Positions 47,664-57,675 of a DNA stretch of 64,000 nucleotides are shown here, in pieces; the first letter of the stretch is position 1, and each line of letters starts with the position of its first letter. The translations under genes were made by a program, and so were the position numbers. The DNA lies in contig VMGJ01000003.1 of assembly GCA_007376485.1 (NCBI GenBank), positions 17,252 through 81,251 on the forward strand, given 5' to 3'. Source of the stretch: Parcubacteria group bacterium Licking1014_17. Its GTDB lineage: Bacteria > Patescibacteriota > Minisyncoccia > 2-02-FULL-40-12 > IGHO2-01-FULL-4-A. Under the pieces are notes generated by a model that did not search any database, was not told the DNA's origin, and saw nothing but the letters and a program-made list of their open reading frames with translations.

Positions 47664-50600
47664 TTATAGCTTCGAGAGCGTTGGTCCGTTCATCGGGAGC
47701 AAGCGCAGCGTGCTGGTCGTTGAAGCAGTGTCGGCATCCGCAAGCGAACCGGCTGAATCAGCAACCCAGTTAATCAAGCCGTTTACGTCATCGCGCAAGA
47801 TCAATTGGAAGTAGTCTGATTTGTCATTGAAGCCGGAGAATCCAACTTCAATGCGGAATGTCTTGGATGTGCCACCCGAGATTTCAACGTCTTTGCCGGG
47901 CGACCCGAAGTCCAAAGTCAGCGACGCATAGTAAGACGGACTGTCGCCAACCGCGGAAATCGTGTCCGAACTGATAACCGAACCGTCGGCCATGTCATAG
48001 GTCGTAGCCGTCAGGTTTGTCGTTGTCGTATCACCCGAAGCGACGGCTTCAAACTTGATTGAGCCGGAACCAGTAGCAAGGTTGTCGAAGTACAGCTTGG
48101 AATCGGAAAGACCCATGGCTGTAATCGTGAACTTCAGCACGTCCTTGGTACCCAAAGGCTCGCCGGCGGAGATAGCCACCTGGTCAAGCTTTGGAAACAC
48201 ACGGTAGACGTACATATTGTTGCCTTGCTTGGCGGCAGCCGCGGCATCAATGATACCGGTTGACGCACCATCAATAACTTGGCTTGAGCCGGCGCCAATC
48301 GCTCTGAAACCGTTGGCGGTTGAACCGTTGTAGGTCTTAGAGAAGTCGATTGAGAAGGCAACGTTGTTGGTCGCGCCTGACGACTTGGTCTTCAGGTCCG
48401 CCTTCACAATAAGGTCGGCGCTCGAGTCCTTAGGAATATAAGGCCTGCTGGTGCCGGCAAACGCGAAGGAGACCGAACCAGCCGAGTTAGGCGAAGCGCT
48501 CTGGGTCAGAAGGTTACCGAGAGCATCGGTGTAAGTCACCGAAATGTTATTCACATTATTAACCTCGTTGGTTGATTCACCCGAAGCGCTGGCAATCAAC
48601 GTGAAGCGTTCAATGTAGAAAGCCTCATTCGTAGAAGTCAGCCTGAATCTGCTGAATTCGGTGCCGGTCTGGCCCCAATACTTAGCTTCTTGAGACGGGG
48701 TGGATGGCGATAGCGAAATCGTCATGGAGCCGGTATTGTTGACCCTTATTTTCACAGTCGGCGATGCGGCGGCGCCGTTCGGAAGAGTCGCGTCCGCGTT
48801 CACCGTCTGGCTGGAATCGTCAAGGGCTGTTATATCGGTCGTAGCGGCGACATTAAACGCTATGCCGTCATACGTACTGGACGGAGTGTTCGTCGAGAGG
48901 TCGCCCTTAACCAAGAGTTTCTTGGTCGCGCCGGCAGGAATAGACCAGTTGCAGTTGTTGAACTGAATGGTGCTTGTTGACGAACTTAGATTGTTTGCAA
49001 CCATGACGCAGGATAACGCTGTCCCTGCATCGCCGTCGTACAGCTTAACTCCCGACACTAGATTGCCGACTGACATTGTGGCATCGGCGTCGGATAGGCC
49101 CAGCGACTTGGCGAAGGTCGAGTTGTCATCCGAAACATAACCGGTAAGAGTTATATCGGTGACTTTCAGACTTGAACCAAGAGCCGCCTTGAAGGTCAAG
49201 CCAAGCAAATCAACATTGGCAGTTCCCTTAACATAGGTCGAGCTCTTTGGGTCGCCGGCAAGACCGAGCGTCAATGACGATGTTGAAACCGTCATAGCAT
49301 TGCCGCTTATATCACCGGACGGACTAAAGTCAGCCAAAACGACGGCAGTGTTGGTGCCGCTGTACTTGGCAACAGTCAAGTCGCCGGATGAAGTAGCAAG
49401 AGTGCCGTAGCCGTAGAGAATCGCTTTGATAATACTGTTGTTGGCTATGGCAAGAGTTCCGCTGTTAGATGTCTTGAGGTCGGCGGTTACCTGAAGGGTC
49501 TTGGTCTCTCCGGTAAGCATTTCCATGGTATCAGTGAAATCCTTATAGAGACCGTTCTTGGAACCCGGGCAGGCCGCTGTTATAGCGATAAAGGCAGAAC
49601 CGTCGGAAGGACCGACAAAAACCGTACCCGTGCTCTTGTCTTTAACCTTGATGTCTTCAAGGTCGGTAACGTTTTGCGCCGCGCTGTAGTCATCATAAGT
49701 GCCATCGCCGTTGATGTCCGTGCAGATAACGATTCTGTGCTTTTTTAGCTCAATGGCCTTAGCGGCATTGATTGTGTATTCTAACAGCACATTATCCTGC
49801 GAATTGTCGGCAATATTGGAAGCCGAAGGACCGGAAAAACTCAAAGTGATTACTCCGCCTTGCAGTGTTATGGCATCAGCATCGGATGCGGTCTCAAGCC
49901 CGTTATTGGCCGAAGATAAAGCCATACCAAAACCATATTGATCGCCAACAACATAAACATCAGAATTCAGCTCAAAGTAGAGCTCAACTGTCTCGGCTTT
50001 CTTGCCGCCCAAGTTTCCGTAAACCTGGAATATTTTGTTGTTGCCTTTCTCAATCTTCACGCCCGAACCGAGGTCAAACACCACATAGCCGTTTGACATA
50101 TAACCATCGGCTACTTTCGAACCGCCGGTTTCAAGCGCTAGGCCGGTGATGTCGGCATCCTTTACGGTGCCGTTGTTAATTAATCTCAATCCCCTTACCC
50201 AGCCGGCTTCCGTGGCAGTCGTAATCTTGAATTCGGAAAGTTTGACATGCTGGGCTCCGACATTCGGATTGGAAAGCGAGCCCGATTTGGCAACAGTAAG
50301 AGTGCCACCGTCGCTTCCCGACATTGTGAAGTTAGCGCCAACAATCGGGAAATATCCGCCAAGCGTGCCCGAGGACAAAATTACGTCACCGGACGAAACA
50401 ATATCGAAGTGATTAACATTTCCCCCGGTCGCACTGAGGTCGGCTTTAACTGTAAGGTCTTTTGTGCCATTAACCGAGATGCCCAAGCTGACAAAAGTAA
50501 CCTTACCTGTTGACGAAGACAAACTTTTACCTGAAGTCAGACGGTTGGAACCATCATAGATGTAAACGTTGTCAATATCATCTACGGAACCAGCACCATT

Positions 50601-51317
50601 GCGAGTGATTGTAATGCTGGAAACAGTGCCGGTACCGGTCAATCTGATCTTGGTAAAAGCGATGCCTTGGGCGTTCTTGGTAACGGTTTGACCAGCCGGA
50701 GTGTCGGGAGATAAAGCAACATTAACATTCCCCGCTACCGGCGGTATTGTTGAACCCGGTGTTCTTGTGTAAACGGGAATCTGCGACAAAGAGGTATAAG
50801 GAGTTGAGCTTTTCGGGTACCAACTTTCCTCCCTTGTATTTATGCAGAATACTTTCTTGAAGAAATCGGGGTCTTGCGCCACCGCGTCGCCGCCAGTCAT
50901 CTGGACGGGGTGAAATACGCCGGTATCTTCGCCGGTTACTTCAACCGCCCAAACTTGCTGGGCATTGGTTTCACAATTTCGATACAACCCAGAGGTCGGG
51001 AAAGCATCTCTGACCGTGGGGGTAACATTCTTAACATTGGCAAAACCGCCCAAGTGGGCGTACATGCCAAATATGGCAGGATTCAAAAACAATCTCTTGA
51101 ATCCCAAGTCGTTGACAATATAGACGTCCGGATCGCTGGAGCCGGCAGCACTGATAGTGTTGCCCTCTGTTAATCCGTAGTCGCTCGGTTTGGCTGCGCC
51201 AGCATTTCTGGCTGTCACAAAGATCAAACCGACGGCGAGCACAACGACAAACGCCGCCGCTATAAACGGTAATGATTTTCTTAAATTACTCATGTGTATT
51301 ATTATTTCCATTCTCAT
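47664..51317 (-). CDS. very large secreted/cell-surface protein (1217 aa; probable true start at the MSNLRKSLPFIAAAFVV methionine, 51293)
   Basis: Signal-peptide-like N-terminus. Repetitive beta-rich T/S/G/N composition. C-terminal third is paralogous to the 705-aa protein and ends LPMNGPTLSKL. Confidence 0.6.
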   Translation of the reverse strand: MRMEIIIHMSNLRKSLPFIAAAFVVVLAVGLIFVTARNAGAAKPSDYGLTEGNTISAAGSSDPDVYIVNDLGFKRLFLNPAIFGMYAHLGGFANVKNVTPTVRDAFPTSGLYRNCETNAQQVWAVEVTGEDTGVFHPVQMTGGDAVAQDPDFFKKVFCINTREESWYPKSSTPYTSLSQIPVYTRTPGSTIPPVAGNVNVALSPDTPAGQTVTKNAQGIAFTKIRLTGTGTVSSITITRNGAGSVDDIDNVYIYDGSNRLTSGKSLSSSTGKVTFVSLGISVNGTKDLTVKADLSATGGNVNHFDIVSSGDVILSSGTLGGYFPIVGANFTMSGSDGGTLTVAKSGSLSNPNVGAQHVKLSEFKITTATEAGWVRGLRLINNGTVKDADITGLALETGGSKVADGYMSNGYVVFDLGSGVKIEKGNNKIFQVYGNLGGKKAETVELYFELNSDVYVVGDQYGFGMALSSANNGLETASDADAITLQGGVITLSFSGPSASNIADNSQDNVLLEYTINAAKAIELKKHRIVICTDINGDGTYDDYSAAQNVTDLEDIKVKDKSTGTVFVGPSDGSAFIAITAACPGSKNGLYKDFTDTMEMLTGETKTLQVTADLKTSNSGTLAIANNSIIKAILYGYGTLATSSGDLTVAKYSGTNTAVVLADFSPSGDISGNAMTVSTSSLTLGLAGDPKSSTYVKGTANVDLLGLTFKAALGSSLKVTDITLTGYVSDDNSTFAKSLGLSDADATMSVGNLVSGVKLYDGDAGTALSCVMVANNLSSSTSTIQFNNCNWSIPAGATKKLLVKGDLSTNTPSSTYDGIAFNVAATTDITALDDSSQTVNADATLPNGAAASPTVKIRVNNTGSMTISLSPSTPSQEAKYWGQTGTEFSRFRLTSTNEAFYIERFTLIASASGESTNEVNNVNNISVTYTDALGNLLTQSASPNSAGSVSFAFAGTSRPYIPKDSSADLIVKADLKTKSSGATNNVAFSIDFSKTYNGSTANGFRAIGAGSSQVIDGASTGIIDAAAAAKQGNNMYVYRVFPKLDQVAISAGEPLGTKDVLKFTITAMGLSDSKLYFDNLATGSGSIKFEAVASGDTTTTNLTATTYDMADGSVISSDTISAVGDSPSYYASLTLDFGSPGKDVEISGGTSKTFRIEVGFSGFNDKSDYFQLILRDDVNGLINWVADSAGSLADADTASTTSTLRLLPMNGPTLSKL

Positions 51318-54809: not shown

Positions 54810-54901
54810 GCAGGATACTTGAATTAGTCCGAACCGCTTTCGCCGCCTGCGGCGGCGAGGAAAACCCCCCGCGAAATTCTGAAAATGCGGCGAAGCCGCG
54901 C
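54810..54901. repeat. inverted repeat R1, ~92 bp, G+C-rich; partner at 55891-55982
   Basis: The reverse complement of 54810-54901 aligns with 55891-55982. The inner ~60 bp are identical and the outer ~30 bp about 85% identical. The flanking 12-bp-stem hairpin at 54783-54811 is not repeated. Confidence 0.8.
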
Positions 54902-54943
54902 CGATGACAATTTCAAGTTTTTCTTTTGGCGGCAAATTCTTTG

Positions 54944-54989
54944 TTCTTTGAATTATAAAAAAGAGGGGGTCGCTTTCGCAAACCCCCTC
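54944..54989 (-). terminator. rho-independent terminator for the 55013..55675 gene
   Basis: On the minus strand: GAGGGGGT-loop-ACCCCCTC hairpin followed by CTTTTTTAT. Confidence 0.6.
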
Positions 54990-55012
54990 GGTTGAGAAGA
55001 TAGATCTCCGCT

Positions 55013-55675
55013 TCATTGAATACGGCCGGTGAGAAATCCTTTTGCGTTCTCATCCCAGAGAATCTTTCGCGGAGTGGTTTTGGTGACACCAGCTTGCGTC
55101 ACCACACCATCAAGTCGTCCGTTGAAGAAAATCGGAACTCCTTCTCGTAGAGCAGACGAACTCACAGTGTCATTCGCTCGAACGCCGTTGAGAAGCTGGC
55201 TCACACCCCGATTGACGAGATGAATTCCGCCTTTCTCGATCCAGGTTCCGCAGTCATAGGTATGAAGCGAAATCGGTTCGAGAACTTCCTCGCGCATGAG
55301 GTTCTCGCCGGTGATGACGAGAAAATCGGCATCGCTCGGCTGAATGGGAACCTGCTCGGTAACTGGTCCACGAAATAGGCGGTTCCTCTTTACTTCCTGG
55401 AAGCCAGGATGACGCACCGCCGATCCAAATGCGATGACCGCCACGATGTCATCGAGTGGAACGAGGGTGTGATTCACTTTCCATCCCGTCACCAACTTGT
55501 AGAGGTCGGCGAGGTTGATGTAGAAATCTGTGATTGCAGAATTTTGGAAGAATCCTCCGCCCGGATGAACGTATGCTTTTCCGTTCGGGAAATACAGTCT
55601 TCCAAGGCGTGTTGCCTCGAAATACTTCGTGAAATCATCCATGTGCAGAACGGTCTCAACTGCTGTGCTTTTCAT
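55013..55675 (-). CDS. putative Pol-beta-superfamily nucleotidyltransferase, horizontally acquired cargo gene (the ORF extends to 55714, but the start at 55675 is preceded by AAAGGAG)
   Basis: AFGSAVRHPG...PSDADFLVITG fits the hG[GS]x(n)Dh[DE]h nucleotidyltransferase motif (compare kanamycin NTase GSLARGE...SDIDLVVI), with an insertion. Codon usage and G+C are clearly higher than in flanking genes. A strong SD lies 7 nt upstream of the second ATG. Confidence 0.45.
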   Translation of the reverse strand: MKSTAVETVLHMDDFTKYFEATRLGRLYFPNGKAYVHPGGGFFQNSAITDFYINLADLYKLVTGWKVNHTLVPLDDIVAVIAFGSAVRHPGFQEVKRNRLFRGPVTEQVPIQPSDADFLVITGENLMREEVLEPISLHTYDCGTWIEKGGIHLVNRGVSQLLNGVRANDTVSSSALREGVPIFFNGRLDGVVTQAGVTKTTPRKILWDENAKGFLTGRIQ

Positions 55676-55749
55676 CGGTTTTCTCCTTTCAAGGAACTTG
55701 TATTTAGGCCACATTGCCTACGCTTGTAAGAATATAGCATATATGATGC

Positions 55750-57675
55750 TTGAAGTCAATAGTAAACAAAAAATCAGCATCTTTGCTGAAAATTATCTTA
55801 AAAAATCCTTATGAAAATTTTTCTTTTCTGCTTCTACAAAATATGGTTCGAGCCGATGTTTTTAACGGGTTCTTTTGCGGTTTTGATTCGTGCGGCTCCG
55901 CCGCCTTTCCGGATTTTCGCGGGGGGACTTCCTCGCCGCCGCAGGCGGCGAAAGCGGTTCGGACTAATTCAAGTATCCTGCACCACGTTGGAAAAGTCAA
56001 TGCCTCGCCCCGCCTTCGGCGGGTCTCGGCGACCAAATCGTACGGATTTTTCGGGGTAAAAAGAAATTCCCGATTCCGGATTGAAGCTCAACTTGTTGAG
56101 CTCAAAGAATTTGCCGCCAAAGAAAAACTTGAAATTGTCGCTTCCTTTCAGGAAGCCAAAACCGCAAAAGAACCCGGGCGAATTAAATTCGCAGAAATGT
56201 TGTCATTGATTGAGAGAGGGAAAGCAGACGGGATAATTTCATGGCATCCGGATCGTCTCGCAAGAAATTCTGTGGATGGCGGAAAGATTATTCACTTTGT
56301 TGATCGCGGCTTGATTCGTTCCCTCAAATTTCCCTGCTTCTGGTTTGAACCGACACCACAAGGATTATTCATGCTGAACATTGCTTTCGGACAAAGCAAG
56401 TATTTTGTAGACAATTTGCGAGAGAATGTAAAAAGAGGTTTGCGGCAGAAAATCAGAAATGGAGTATGGCCAAGTTGGGCTCCAATTGGCTACACTAACA
56501 ACCCCAAAACGCGCGGTATTGATATTGATAGCGACAAAGCCCCTAAGGTAAAGAAATTGTTTGAAATGTATGCCACCGGAGAATACTCTCTCAACATCCT
56601 CGCAAATTGGTGTGAGAAAAAGAAACTGCTCACTAACGCCGGAAACAAAATATCATTAAGCAATGTTCAGCATATTCTCCAAAACCCTTTCTACATTGGG
56701 TTGATGAGATACAAAGGGGAAATTTTTGAGGGAACACACGAACCGTTAATCTCAAAGAAACTTTTTGATAAATGTCAGGAAGTTATGGTAAAGCGTGGGA
56801 AAGTGAGGCCAGACAGGAAACACTATTTTGCTTTTCTTGGCCTGATGAAATGCGCCTCGTGTGGTTGTTCAATTACGGCTCAATACGCAAAAGGAAATGG
56901 TGGTATTTACACTTACTATCGGTGTACAAAAAAGCGAGGCAAGTGCCAAGAAAAGTATCTTGATGAAAAACAGCTTTTAACACAAATTAAAAACTTCCTG
57001 CAAAAAGTTTCTTTGTCGAGCCAAGACACCGAGAAAGTTTTGGCGGCATTAGGCACAGAAGAAACACAAGCGAAACAACAAGCACAAAGTGAGGCGGTAA
57101 ATCTAAAAGAGCAGTTAGCTCAAATTGAAACAAAGCTCCAGAAATTGCTGGACGTATATCTCGATGATGCACTTACTCAAAAAGAATACGCCACCAAAAA
57201 AGATGTCCTCATTTCCCAAAAGGTCGAGTTAAACGAAAAAATCACCGACTTTGAGCAAAAAGGGGTGTCTTGGCTCGAACCGGCTCGTGAGTTTGTAAAA
57301 TCCTTGAATCAAGCCGCTAATTTACTTGAATCAGAAAATCTTTCCGAAATGACAACATTTCTGAAAAACATCGGCTCGAACCATATTTTACGGAATCGGG
57401 AATTTCTTTTTACCCCGAAAAATCCGTACGATTTGGTCGCCGAGACCCGCCGAAGGCGGGGCGAGGCATTGACTTTTCCAACGTGGTGGTCGTGTTCTGC
57501 CATTGAACCACACCCGCGTTGCCAAGGGGGTTTCGGCGAAACTTCGCCGAAACCCCCTTGGCTGAATTTTTATTTTTTATTTATCCAGTCGGTAACGGAC
57601 TGCCAGAATTTACCCCATGCGTCCGGTTGCCCGGCGCTTTTTTCAATCACGCTCGTTTCTTTATTTTTTGAGTAA
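55750..57675 (+). CDS. large serine recombinase (resolvase/invertase-type catalytic domain + recombinase domain + zinc ribbon + coiled coil). True start and stop are uncertain because the ORF runs through repeats S, R1', R2 and R2'
   Basis: WHPDRLARN (the catalytic DRLxR of serine recombinases), GTHEPLISKKLF, the zinc ribbon CASCGCSITAQY...YYRCTKKRGKC and the coiled-coil C-terminus all match large serine recombinases (A118/Bxb1/TnpX-like). The first in-frame ATG/GTG/TTG before the catalytic region is at 55843 (inside S) or 55750. There is no canonical start just upstream of the putative catalytic Ser (KRNS at aa 104-107 or RVS at aa 91-93). Confidence 0.75.
   Translation: MKSIVNKKSASLLKIILKNPYENFSFLLLQNMVRADVFNGFFCGFDSCGSAAFPDFRGGTSSPPQAAKAVRTNSSILHHVGKVNASPRLRRVSATKSYGFFGVKRNSRFRIEAQLVELKEFAAKEKLEIVASFQEAKTAKEPGRIKFAEMLSLIERGKADGIISWHPDRLARNSVDGGKIIHFVDRGLIRSLKFPCFWFEPTPQGLFMLNIAFGQSKYFVDNLRENVKRGLRQKIRNGVWPSWAPIGYTNNPKTRGIDIDSDKAPKVKKLFEMYATGEYSLNILANWCEKKKLLTNAGNKISLSNVQHILQNPFYIGLMRYKGEIFEGTHEPLISKKLFDKCQEVMVKRGKVRPDRKHYFAFLGLMKCASCGCSITAQYAKGNGGIYTYYRCTKKRGKCQEKYLDEKQLLTQIKNFLQKVSLSSQDTEKVLAALGTEETQAKQQAQSEAVNLKEQLAQIETKLQKLLDVYLDDALTQKEYATKKDVLISQKVELNEKITDFEQKGVSWLEPAREFVKSLNQAANLLESENLSEMTTFLKNIGSNHILRNREFLFTPKNPYDLVAETRRRRGEALTFPTWWSCSAIEPHPRCQGGFGETSPKPPWLNFYFLFIQSVTDCQNLPHASGCPALFSITLVSLFFE
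55838..55863. repeat. 26-bp repeat S (AAAATATGGTTCGAGCCGATGTTTTT); inverted copy at 57364-57389
   Basis: Exact reverse-complement match. The left copy lies 27 bp outside R1'. The right copy abuts R2'. Confidence 0.75.
55891..55982. repeat. inverted repeat R1' (partner of 54810-54901), abutting R2
   Basis: See R1. The R1/R1' pair brackets the nucleotidyltransferase gene. Confidence 0.8.
55982..56079. repeat. inverted repeat R2, 98 bp; perfect inverted partner at 57391-57488
   Basis: The reverse complement of 57391-57488 is identical to 55982-56079 over the full 98 bp. The R2/R2' pair brackets the serine-recombinase core, and both copies lie inside the recombinase reading frame. Confidence 0.85.
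57364..57389. repeat. repeat S' (inverted copy of 55838-55863)
   Basis: Exact match in reverse complement. Confidence 0.75.
57391..57488. repeat. inverted repeat R2' (perfect partner of 55982-56079)
   Basis: See R2. Confidence 0.85.
57521..57583 (+). terminator. strong rho-independent terminator 3' of the recombinase gene
   Basis: 20-bp perfect stem GCCAAGGGGGTTTCGGCGAA-ac-TTCGCCGAAACCCCCTTGGC followed by TGAATTTTTATTTTTTATTT. Confidence 0.8.

What the first reader, a model, noticed from the sequence alone, without database searches (positions are those of the whole stretch)
55013..55675. Foreign cargo gene encodes a probable Pol-beta-fold nucleotidyltransferase (resistance-, toxin- or defense-type NTase?)
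AFGSAVRHPG...(insertion)...PSDADFLVITG reproduces the hG[GS]...Dh[DE]h core of minimal nucleotidyltransferases. The gene has its own strong SD (AAAGGAG, 7 nt upstream) and terminator. Its composition is unlike the host's, and it is delivered next to a serine recombinase. This is the pattern of an accessory gene such as an antibiotic nucleotidyltransferase, a CBASS/Abi-type NTase or a toxin. The 17-residue insertion between GS and DxD, and the ~100-residue N-terminal region, match no family I can name from memory.
Basis: partly seen in the sequence, partly recalled or inferred. Interest (0 to 1): 0.6.

Follow-up and report, generated by a model that had tools for sequence, protein, structure and literature searches.

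The report
Divergent nucleotidyltransferase, cargo of recombinase element
The gene is real and encodes an uncharacterised, strongly diverged member of the DNA-polymerase-beta-type nucleotidyltransferases, and it sits in the swappable cargo position of a small serine-recombinase mobile element that inserts beside tRNA genes in ultra-small (CPR) bacteria.

Summary
Window 55013-55675 (- strand) is a 220-aa ORF with an AAAGGAG Shine-Dalgarno 7 nt upstream, a promoter-like site and a hairpin terminator.

It matches no Pfam, NCBIfam, PADLOC or PHROG model. About 180 family representatives exist in CPR bacteria, DPANN archaea and phage-like contigs. dN/dS is 0.07-0.2.

Two AlphaFold models (pLDDT 85.7 and 96.8) both retrieve only Pol-beta nucleotidyltransferases from the PDB: ANT(4'), Hailong HalB, 3c18 and Tam41. 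The matches are weak (E about 1e-3, TM about 0.3). One family member passes Pfam's threshold for PF18765. The NTase reading is therefore supported.

It is not a member of the ANT/Lnu, CD-NTase, HEPN-MNT, MenT or Hailong families. Their models or partner genes are absent.

The gene occupies an 835-nt cargo slot in a roughly 2.7-kb element. That element is built around a large serine recombinase that is very common in CPR bacteria and abuts tRNA 3' ends. Sibling elements carry unrelated genes in the same slot.

The window's recombinase lacks its first 20 codons, including the catalytic serine, and the adjacent tRNA is a stump.

The substrate and biological role remain unknown.

The parts
55013..55675 (-). 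CDS of the 220-aa divergent minimal nucleotidyltransferase (GS at residues 84-85, DxD at 115-117, GGIHLVNR at 149-156)
55683..55689 (-). Shine-Dalgarno AAAGGAG, 7 nt before the ATG. It is invariant in 9 related cassettes.
55731..55759 (-). Promoter-like site TTGACT-17-TATATT with extended TG. The -35 hexamer and much of the -10 region are conserved in 9 cassettes.
55774..55789 (.). Small conserved hairpin TCAGCA..TGCTGA plus T-run, upstream of the promoter and inside the cargo-specific segment
54957..54989 (-). Intrinsic terminator of the NTase gene (GAGGGGGT..ACCCCCTC followed by T6)
54963..55797 (-). Cargo-specific segment: promoter, gene and terminator. This is the only part of the element with no counterpart in sibling elements L059 and L060.
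54810..54910 (-). Scaffold arm A, the outer left end of the element. It is an inverted copy of 55886-55981 (88% over 101 nt). In related loci A ends in a tRNA-3'-end-like GCACCA.
54906..54943 (-). R1 copy: 37-38 nt matching recombinase coding sequence 56103-56139 with one extra base
55811..55885 (-). Scaffold U2 (55811-55837), U1 (55838-55863) and R2 (55866-55885). U1 copies recombinase sequence 57364-57389. R2 copies recombinase sequence 56157-56176.
55886..55981 (+). Scaffold arm A, inner copy
55982..56078 (+). Scaffold arm B: a perfect inverted copy of the recombinase's own 3' coding end
56079..57493 (+). Large serine recombinase gene lacking leader, RBS, start codon and codons 1-20 (MKYIIYARKSTEEDDRQVLS, catalytic Ser). 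The deletion is about 100 nt relative to L007, L059 and L060. The gene contains R1 (56103-56139), the palindrome GCTTCCTTTCAGGAAGC (56140-56156), R2 (56157-56176), and U1 then B at its 3' end (57364-57488). The natural stop is lost, so the open frame runs on to 57675.
57484..57517 (-). tRNA stump: a 5' half of a tRNA followed directly by CACCA, abutting the recombinase 3' end. This is the remnant of the tRNA target.

Best explanation
The gene encodes a stand-alone, probably catalytically active, strongly diverged minimal nucleotidyltransferase of the Pol-beta superfamily.

The NTase core is beta1-GS, then DxD on the next core strand, then a helical hairpin ending in REGVP. Three additions elaborate it: an N-terminal extension of about 55 residues, a basic beta-hairpin inserted between GS and DxD, and about 35 C-terminal residues.

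Inferred mechanism: G84 and S85 position an NTP. D115 and D117 bind Mg2+. Residue 152, which is His here and Asp in 12% of the family, may be a third ligand. The enzyme would transfer an NMP to a hydroxyl group on a macromolecular acceptor. An RNA or DNA 3' end is the likeliest acceptor and a protein side chain the next likeliest.

The gene is a self-contained transcription unit with its own promoter, Shine-Dalgarno and terminator. It sits as exchangeable cargo, divergent from the recombinase gene, in a roughly 2.7-kb large-serine-recombinase element that lies against tRNA 3' ends in CPR bacteria.

The same family occurs in phage-like gene arrays and as solitary insertions in DPANN archaea. 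Its role is therefore most likely in conflict between mobile elements and hosts (defence, counter-defence or element maintenance), not in recombination.

Shown here: the gene, its signals, purifying selection, the fold class, the cargo position and the defective recombinase. Inferred: catalysis, the acceptor and the biological role.
For: These are ANT(4'), HalB, 3c18, ANT(4')-IIb and Tam41, at probability 0.9-1.0 and E 7e-4 to 3e-2. BFVD hits are mostly phage proteins annotated as nucleotidyltransferases.

Sequence: family member P0213 (E 9e-9 to the family profile) scores 28.1 bits on PF18765 Polbeta, above the 26.9 cut-off. Eight of 73 distant members hit PF18765. The family profile's best PDB hit is a 120-aa 'nucleotidyltransferase domain-containing protein', 9xbd. 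It aligns the GS, DxD-FLV and REG(I/V) motifs in the correct order at E 0.032.

Conservation and selection: G84 137/137, D117 124/137, D115 105/137. dN/dS is 0.07-0.2.

Cargo status: the scaffold is 86-99% identical to elements L059 and L060, which carry 274-aa and 146-aa ORFs instead. The cassette occurs with conserved flanks in at least 8 different genomic contexts.

No conserved neighbour gene was found across 55 loci. Phage-like contexts appear.

The GS-DxD insertion is basic, with a median of 7 K/R against 3 D/E.
Against: The window protein itself passes no Pfam, NCBIfam, PADLOC or PHROG threshold.

The family profile has no significant PDB sequence hit.

Structural similarity is shallow: TM about 0.3, rmsd 5-9 A, 125-143 aligned columns.

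A conserved third acidic residue is missing. Residue 152 as a metal ligand is my inference and was not checked on coordinates.

No biochemical data exist, and no partner or substrate was identified. An IMG/VR scan with two exact-peptide patterns found no viral copy, so 'phage-like context' rests on gene-array appearance only.
Confidence: 0.6

Rival explanations
1. It is an orphan MNT-type 'antitoxin-like' enzyme. It would nucleotidylate and so neutralise a HEPN-type RNase or another toxin encoded elsewhere in the host or in a competing element. That is a counter-defence or anti-addiction role.
For: The closest sequence relatives are minimal NTases (PF18765; 9xbd). The GSxx(R/K) and C-terminal REGVP motifs resemble my recollection of MNT motifs. 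The family occurs in phage-like arrays and mobile cassettes.
Against: No conserved partner gene, and hence no recurrent HEPN gene, lies next to it in 55 loci. The N- and C-terminal extensions and the basic hairpin are absent from classical MNTs. No target is known.
Confidence: 0.2
2. It is a toxin or abortive-infection NTase that modifies tRNA or RNA 3' ends, in the manner of MenT or AbiEii.
For: It has the NTase fold, a basic insertion suited to nucleic acid and a mobile-element context.
Against: No antitoxin gene sits in the 835-nt cargo segment or recurs beside it. It does not match AbiEii/MenT-type Pfam or PADLOC models. MenT structures are not among the fold hits. The gene is kept intact in a decaying element, which would be odd for an unneutralised toxin.
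Confidence: 0.1
3. It is an accessory factor of the recombinase, such as a directionality factor or another mobility protein of the element.
For: It sits beside the recombinase in the window and in L007. A 41%-identical homologue lies in the same ~5-kb region of contig L047 as a 41%-identical recombinase, with the recombinase at the contig end. Solitary one-gene insertions are bracketed by direct repeats of tRNA 3' ends or terminator tails.
Against: Sibling elements with 86-99% identical scaffolds carry unrelated genes in the same slot. Most family members have no recombinase nearby. The recombinase family has more than 7500 hits, against about 180 representatives for this family.
Confidence: 0.05
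4. It is an antibiotic (aminoglycoside or lincosamide) nucleotidyltransferase.
For: The top structural hits are ANT(4') enzymes.
Against: No hit at E<=1 in NCBIfam, which to my knowledge includes NCBI's resistance-gene models. The helical C-terminal domain of ANT(4') is absent from the model. TM is only about 0.3. The hosts are uncultured CPR/DPANN organisms and their viruses.
Confidence: 0.04
5. It is a catalytically dead NTase-fold protein serving as a binding or scaffold module.
For: The third carboxylate is not conserved. S85, D115 and residue 152 are each replaced in a minority of members.
Against: G84, D115 and D117 are conserved in 77-100% of 137 members, and purifying selection is strong.
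Confidence: 0.1

Closest known systems
Minimal nucleotidyltransferases (MNT; Pfam PF18765 Polbeta / PF01909 NTP_transf_2, clan NTP_transf)
   Same: Both have a GS motif after beta1 and DxD at the start of the next core strand. Both have a short helical C-terminal part ending in REG(V/I). The core is of similar size. One family member passes the PF18765 threshold.
   Different: This family has about 55 extra N-terminal residues, a basic beta-hairpin of about 17-25 residues between GS and DxD, and about 35 extra C-terminal residues. It has no adjacent HEPN partner. The window protein is below every Pfam threshold.
Hailong HalB (PDB 9dbh/9dbi/9dbj)
   Same: It has a similar length (about 216 aa) and is among the best structural matches (E 1.5e-3, 16-21% identity over about 125-131 columns).
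   Different: HalB works with the membrane effector HalA in a two-gene operon and primes oligo-dA synthesis on its own tyrosine (review PMC13434031). No HalA-like or any other partner gene is present here, and no tyrosine is conserved in 60% or more of the family.
Kanamycin nucleotidyltransferase ANT(4') (PDB 1kny, 6un8)
   Same: It is the best Foldseek hit to the NTase core (E 7e-4).
   Different: ANT(4') has a helical C-terminal domain and acts on a small-molecule substrate. TM is about 0.3 and identity 12-17%. No resistance-gene HMM matches.
Mobile elements driven by large serine recombinases, such as serine integrases of phages and the staphylococcal cassette recombinases CcrA/B (comparison to those systems from my own knowledge)
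   Same: The neighbouring gene has the Resolvase + Recombinase + Zn-ribbon architecture, with NCBIfam similarity to CcrB and XisF. The element lies against a tRNA gene.
   Different: This element is tiny (about 2.7-3 kb), with one recombinase and one swappable cargo gene. The recombinase's last codons overlap the tRNA 3' end. There are 96-98-nt inverted scaffold repeats and copies of recombinase coding sequence (R1, R2, U1) at the cargo boundaries.

Membership tests
Pol-beta nucleotidyltransferase superfamily (fold level) | hG[GS] motif after the first core strand | tested here: met
   AFGSAV; G84 in 137/137 and S85 in 102/137
Pol-beta nucleotidyltransferase superfamily (fold level) | [DE]h[DE]h on the adjacent strand | tested here: met
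   D115-A-D117-FLVIT, predicted strand 115-122. D115 in 105/137; D117 in 124/137 plus 8 Glu.
Pol-beta nucleotidyltransferase superfamily (fold level) | Third catalytic carboxylate on a later strand | tested here: inconclusive
   No invariant acidic residue was found. The candidate position 152 is His in 86, Asp in 17 and Asn in 9 of 137. Model coordinates could not be inspected.
Pol-beta nucleotidyltransferase superfamily (fold level) | Structural similarity of the core to solved NTases | tested here: met
Pfam PF18765 Polbeta / PF01909 NTP_transf_2 | Score above the curated gathering threshold | tested here: not met
   The window protein has no hit at E<=1. Relative P0213 passes PF18765 (28.1 against 26.9 bits), so the link is transitive only.
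HEPN-MNT toxin-antitoxin module | Adjacent HEPN-domain partner gene | tested here: not met
   The cargo segment holds one gene. Neighbour clustering over 55 loci found no recurrent partner, and no HEPN family appears in the Pfam-annotated contexts.
Antibiotic NTases (ANT, Lnu) | Match to a curated resistance-gene HMM or the KNTase C-terminal helical domain | tested here: not met
   No NCBIfam or Pfam hit. The C-terminal part of the model is a short helical hairpin plus beta strands.
CD-NTase (CBASS) | Match to CD-NTase/SMODS models and an adjacent effector gene | tested here: not met
   No PADLOC or Pfam hit, and no adjacent effector.
Hailong (HalA-HalB) | Two-gene operon with the transmembrane HalA effector | tested here: not met
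   The gene is monocistronic with its own promoter and terminator, and no partner recurs. Structural similarity to HalB is weak. I do not know whether PADLOC 2.0.0 includes Hailong models.
MenT / AbiEii NTase toxins | Match to AbiEii/DUF1814 models and an adjacent antitoxin | tested here: not met
   No Pfam or PADLOC hit, and no adjacent gene.
Large serine recombinase (neighbouring gene, not the finding itself) | Resolvase catalytic domain with its N-terminal serine nucleophile, plus Recombinase and zinc-ribbon domains | tested here: not met
   All three domains are present. The Resolvase match starts at profile position 15, and the first 20 codons of intact homologues (MKYIIYARKST...) are deleted. 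This is a disabled copy.

The most novel reading that the evidence does not exclude
The cargo position may be a genuine cassette-exchange site run by a large serine recombinase, a functional analogue of an integron. In that reading this NTase is one plug-in cassette that has moved between CPR bacteria, DPANN archaea and their viruses.

Four observations do not exclude this reading. The boundary sequences R1 and R2 stay 100% identical while synonymous sites of the cargo are saturated. R1-palindrome-R2 also lies inside the recombinase's own coding sequence. The same arrangement occurs between two different cargo genes in L023. Unrelated genes occupy the same slot in sibling elements.

A further speculative layer is that the NTase acts on tRNA or RNA 3' ends, the same structures beside which the cassettes insert.
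Probability: 0.15. Interest if true: 0.75.

Novelty: new variant of a known kind. Interest (0 to 1): 0.45.

Why it matters
CPR bacteria and DPANN archaea have tiny genomes in which most accessory genes are unannotated.

This result puts a name and a testable active site (G84/S85, D115/D117, H152) on a family of about 180 representative 'hypothetical proteins' shared by both groups and by phage-like contigs.

It also exposes the vehicle. This is a very abundant, very small serine-recombinase element that abuts tRNA genes and has a single exchangeable cargo gene. Cataloguing what fills that slot would be a direct way to find conflict or fitness genes in organisms that cannot be cultured.

The enzyme is an ordinary kind of protein in an unusual form. 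Its value depends on what it nucleotidylates.

Tried and rejected
1. Direct family assignment failed. Pfam, NCBIfam, PADLOC, PHROGs and PDB sequence searches with the single protein gave nothing, and PDB profile searches gave nothing significant.

3. Structured RNA, intron or tRNA-like explanations for the conserved flanks were rejected. Rfam gave no hit at gathering thresholds and only noise at E<=5. ARAGORN found no tRNA in the window. Arms A and B fold no better than shuffles.

4. I considered an AEP primase (DxD + His) or a DDE/PD-(D/E)xK nuclease or transposase. I rejected these because DxD sits at the start of a strand after a GS strand, as in NTases, and all fold hits are NTases.

5. 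My first element model was wrong. It held that the recombinase ends at ...HIL, with recombinase and NTase originally on the same strand. Intact homologues end ...RNREFLF.PKNPYDLVAE....LTFPTWC, so arm B is the recombinase's own 3' coding end. Canonical elements L059 and L060 have cargo and recombinase divergent, as in the window.

6. An SSV-like model, in which the integrase gene is split by integration at R1/R2, is not supported. No half of the 17-nt palindrome remains at the junctions.

7. Long antisense ORFs inside the gene and the small ORF across U2/U1/R2 are broken or context-dependent, so they are not genes.

8. A scan of IMG/VR for relatives found none.

9. The other cargo proteins (L059 274 aa, L060 146 aa, L023 88 aa) have no Pfam or PADLOC identity.

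10. Literature searches found no description of this family or element.

Full report
**The observation**

Window 55013-55675 on the - strand is an ORF of 220 codons starting MKSTAVETV. An in-frame ATG at 55714 would add 13 residues. Homologues start at MKS, and the Shine-Dalgarno AAAGGAG (55683-55689) sits 7 nt before the 55675 start.

A sigma-70-like site, TTGACT-17-TATATT with an upstream TG, lies at 55759-55731. A GC-rich hairpin followed by T6 lies at 54957-54989, with -24.1 kcal/mol and z = -3.3 against shuffles.

The gene is 51.3% GC against 41.5% for the window, and only 2.7% of equal-sized windows reach that value. Host genes nearby are also 46-51% GC, so the contrast is modest locally.

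**Is it a real gene?**

The exact protein is annotated as a hypothetical protein of 'Parcubacteria group bacterium Licking1014_17'.

- A word-indexed search found 85 relatives. An exhaustive profile search found 181 representatives at E<=1e-3. Nearly all listed are about 200-260 aa and none carries a source annotation beyond 'hypothetical protein'.
- Pairwise dN/dS against eight cassette homologues is 0.07-0.2, even where dS exceeds 2.
- Relatives occur in Saccharibacteria, Yanofskybacteria, Microgenomates, Pace-, Woese- and Nanoarchaeota MAGs, and in two bins labelled Gammaproteobacteria.

**What fold?**

The protein matches nothing in Pfam, NCBIfam, PADLOC or PHROGs, and has no PDB sequence relative. 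Three independent lines nevertheless agree on the Pol-beta NTase fold.

1. An AlphaFold model (pLDDT 85.7, pTM 0.83) retrieves only Pol-beta nucleotidyltransferases among its top 25 PDB hits. These are ANT(4') at E 7e-4, Hailong HalB at 1.5e-3, the 3c18 'nucleotidyltransferase-like protein', Tam41 and ANT(4')-IIb. A second model, of the Yanofskybacteria homologue P0014 with a deeper alignment (pLDDT 96.8, pTM 0.91), gives the same list apart from one non-NTase hit at rank 23. BFVD hits are mostly phage proteins annotated as nucleotidyltransferases.

2. Eight of 73 distant family members hit PF18765 'Polbeta'. One of them, P0213, is linked to the family profile at E 9e-9 and has a short GS-DxD spacer. 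It scores 28.1 bits, above the 26.9 cut-off.

3. The family profile's best PDB hit is a 120-aa 'nucleotidyltransferase domain-containing protein', 9xbd, at E 0.032. The alignment places GS, DxD-FLV and the C-terminal REG(I/V) in the right order.

The similarity is shallow: TM about 0.3 over 125-143 columns. No close structural relative is solved.

In the model the core is helix 55-63, strand 77-83, then G84-S85, then strand 115-122 carrying D115 and D117, then further strands and a helical hairpin at 158-178.

The additions are as follows:

- residues 1-54;
- a beta-hairpin at 92-110 between GS and DxD. The whole GS-DxD spacer is basic across the family, with a median of 7 K/R against 3 D/E and a median length of 35;
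- the last ~35 residues.

G84 is invariant. D117 is Asp in 124 of 137 members and D115 in 105. A third invariant carboxylate is missing. Position 152 (GGIHLVNR) is His in 86, Asp in 17 and Asn in 9. My suggestion that it is the third metal ligand is an inference.

**Which NTase family?**

None of the named ones.

- There are no matches to resistance-gene HMMs, CD-NTase models or AbiEii/MenT models.
- The ANT(4') helical domain is absent.
- No partner gene was found. Neighbour clustering over 55 loci yielded no recurrent neighbour beyond synteny within one lineage, so HEPN-MNT and Hailong (HalA-HalB) fail on a defining feature.
- One relative, P0201, is fused to a protein-kinase domain. This is a single case.

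**The surroundings**

The adjacent ORF is a large serine recombinase with Resolvase, Recombinase and Zn-ribbon domains. Its family is very abundant in CPR bacteria:

- more than 7500 hits at E<=1e-60;
- 75-92% identity across Adler-, Kuenen-, Moran-, Giovannoni-, Lipton- and Brennerbacteria;
- an intact length of about 490-500 aa.

Intact homologues begin MKYIIYARKSTEEDDRQVLSIEAQ and end ...RNREFLF.PKNPYDLVAE....LTFPTWC. The last codons, TGG TGC, are the reverse complement of a tRNA ...GCACCA end.

Two sibling elements, L059 and L060, show the canonical layout. In recombinase orientation it reads:

- arm A (inverted), then R1 (inverted), then a terminator;
- the cargo gene, pointing away from the recombinase, then its promoter;
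- U2, U1 and R2 (all inverted), then arm A, arm B and a leader;
- the recombinase, whose own sequence contains R1, a 17-nt palindrome, R2, U1, and arm B as its 3' end;
- then the reverse complement of a tRNA gene, which is tRNA-Arg(CCT) in L060.

The window has the same scaffold:

- the recombinase body is 86.6% identical over 1409 nt;
- the U2-U1-R2-A-B block is 96% identical over 268-283 nt;
- the left A and R1 are 88-90% identical.

Only 54963-55797 has no counterpart. That 835-nt segment is the NTase promoter, gene and terminator. L059 carries a 274-aa ORF there and L060 a 146-aa ORF, both without Pfam or PADLOC identity. L007 carries a 97%-identical NTase beside the same recombinase in a different host context.

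The NTase is therefore exchangeable cargo of this element. 'Foreign cargo delivered next to a serine recombinase' is correct.

**State of the window copy**

Relative to L007, L059 and L060, about 100 nt are missing. The deletion removes the leader, the RBS, the start codon and codons 1-20, including the serine nucleophile. The Pfam Resolvase match accordingly starts at profile position 15.

The 98-nt perfect inverted repeat (55981-56078 and 57391-57488) is arm B and the recombinase's own 3' end.

The tRNA next to it is a stump: a 5' half followed directly by CACCA, at 57484-57517. The natural stop is lost and the frame runs on to 57675.

The element is probably immobile on its own, yet the NTase ORF is intact.

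**Recombinase-less derivatives and solitary copies**

The cassette with nucleotide-conserved flanks recurs in at least eight other contexts. In several of them arm B starts directly after the 3' end of a different tRNA gene: Leu(CAA) in L025, Ile(GAT) in a Saccharibacteria MAG (L013) and Arg(TCT) in Yanofskybacteria (L001). The far end is arm A, which itself ends in ...GCACCA.

R1 and R2 are 100% identical between the window and Yanofskybacteria although dS is about 2. These boundary sequences are therefore under constraint.

L023 has two cassettes in tandem, separated by R1, a short palindrome and R2.

More distant homologues are solitary insertions bracketed by direct repeats of the target:

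- about 125 nt starting at a tRNA-Glu 3' end, in a metagenome contig (L056), with the same repeat start in a Pacearchaeota MAG contig (L017);
- 13 nt of a tRNA-Ser 3' end (L033);
- 17-19 nt of intrinsic-terminator tails (L009, L019).

Others sit in same-strand arrays of small unannotated ORFs that look like phage early regions. A pattern scan of IMG/VR found none.

**Most likely mechanism**

I commit to an active stand-alone NTase. It would bind NTP-Mg2+ at G84/S85/D115/D117 and transfer an NMP to a macromolecular hydroxyl group.

My rough split for the acceptor is:

- a nucleic-acid 3' end, about 40%. The reasons are the basic hairpin and the structural neighbour HalB;
- a protein side chain, about 30%. 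The reason is that the nearest sequence relatives are MNT-type;
- a small molecule, about 15%;
- inactive, about 15%.

The role is most likely in conflict between mobile elements, viruses and hosts. The reasons are that the gene is monocistronic moron-like cargo, that it is interchangeable with other unknown genes, and that it is shared by CPR, DPANN and phage-like contigs. None of this was tested biochemically.

A role as a recombination accessory factor is unlikely because unrelated genes fill the same slot.

**Novelty and score**

This is a new, architecturally distinct subfamily of a very well known enzyme superfamily, carried by a mobile element I could not find described. The gene alone is of moderate interest. 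The element with its cargo slot is the more unusual part, and I followed it only partly.

Noticed in passing
window 54810-57517; L059 3484-6540; L060 3675-6540: A compact (about 2.7-3 kb) element: one large serine recombinase plus one divergent cargo gene. It is framed by 96-98-nt inverted scaffold repeats (A/A and B/B). The recombinase's last codons overlap the 3' end of a tRNA gene. The recombinase family has more than 7500 close relatives across CPR phyla. I found no description of the element in the literature library.
   Followed up: partly
window 56103-56176, with copies at 54906-54943 and 55866-85; L023 556-679: Recombinase coding sequence R1 - GCTTCCTTTCAGGAAGC - R2 reappears split at the two borders of the cargo cassette. 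It stays 100% identical in loci where the cargo's synonymous sites are saturated. In L023, R1 - a different palindrome - R2 separates two cassettes. This could be a recombination or exchange site, but the mechanism is unresolved.
   Followed up: partly
window 56079 (junction) and 57484-57675: The window's recombinase lacks about 100 nt (leader, start, codons 1-20 with the catalytic serine). It has lost its natural stop, and the neighbouring tRNA is reduced to a 5' half plus CACCA. This is a decaying element copy.
   Followed up: yes
L056 4660-4790 and 5835-5960; L017; L033 717 and 1491; L019 5914 and 6680; L009 5895 and 6731: Distant NTase homologues are single-gene insertions bracketed by direct repeats of the target. 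The repeats derive from tRNA 3' ends (including in a Pacearchaeota archaeon MAG) or from intrinsic-terminator tails. No recombinase was seen in the flanks examined. How these move is unexplained.
   Followed up: partly
L001/L007/L023/L025/L030/L031 downstream flanks (for example L007 1697-1740): A hairpin insertion of about 42 nt (ACTGAAATTCGTTAGAATTTCAGT...), flanked by a CGCCAA duplication, interrupts R1 in most cassettes. It is absent from the window copy and from the recombinase gene.
   Followed up: no
P0201 (481 aa): One family member is fused to an N-terminal Ser/Thr protein-kinase domain (Pkinase E 2.6e-30). This is a single case and might hint at protein-directed chemistry.
   Followed up: no
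L047 1-4751: A 41%-identical NTase lies about 3.5 kb from a 41%-identical serine recombinase that sits at the contig end. The ORFs between them look to me like a MoxR-type AAA ATPase and a VWA/metallopeptidase-type protein, plus two paralogous unknown ORFs, but I did not run a domain search on them. A pheS-like gene follows the NTase.
   Followed up: no
window 47664-51317 (-): A 1217-aa ORF with a signal-anchor-like N terminus and 50.7% GC, the highest in the window. It is probably a large surface protein. I did not examine it.
   Followed up: no
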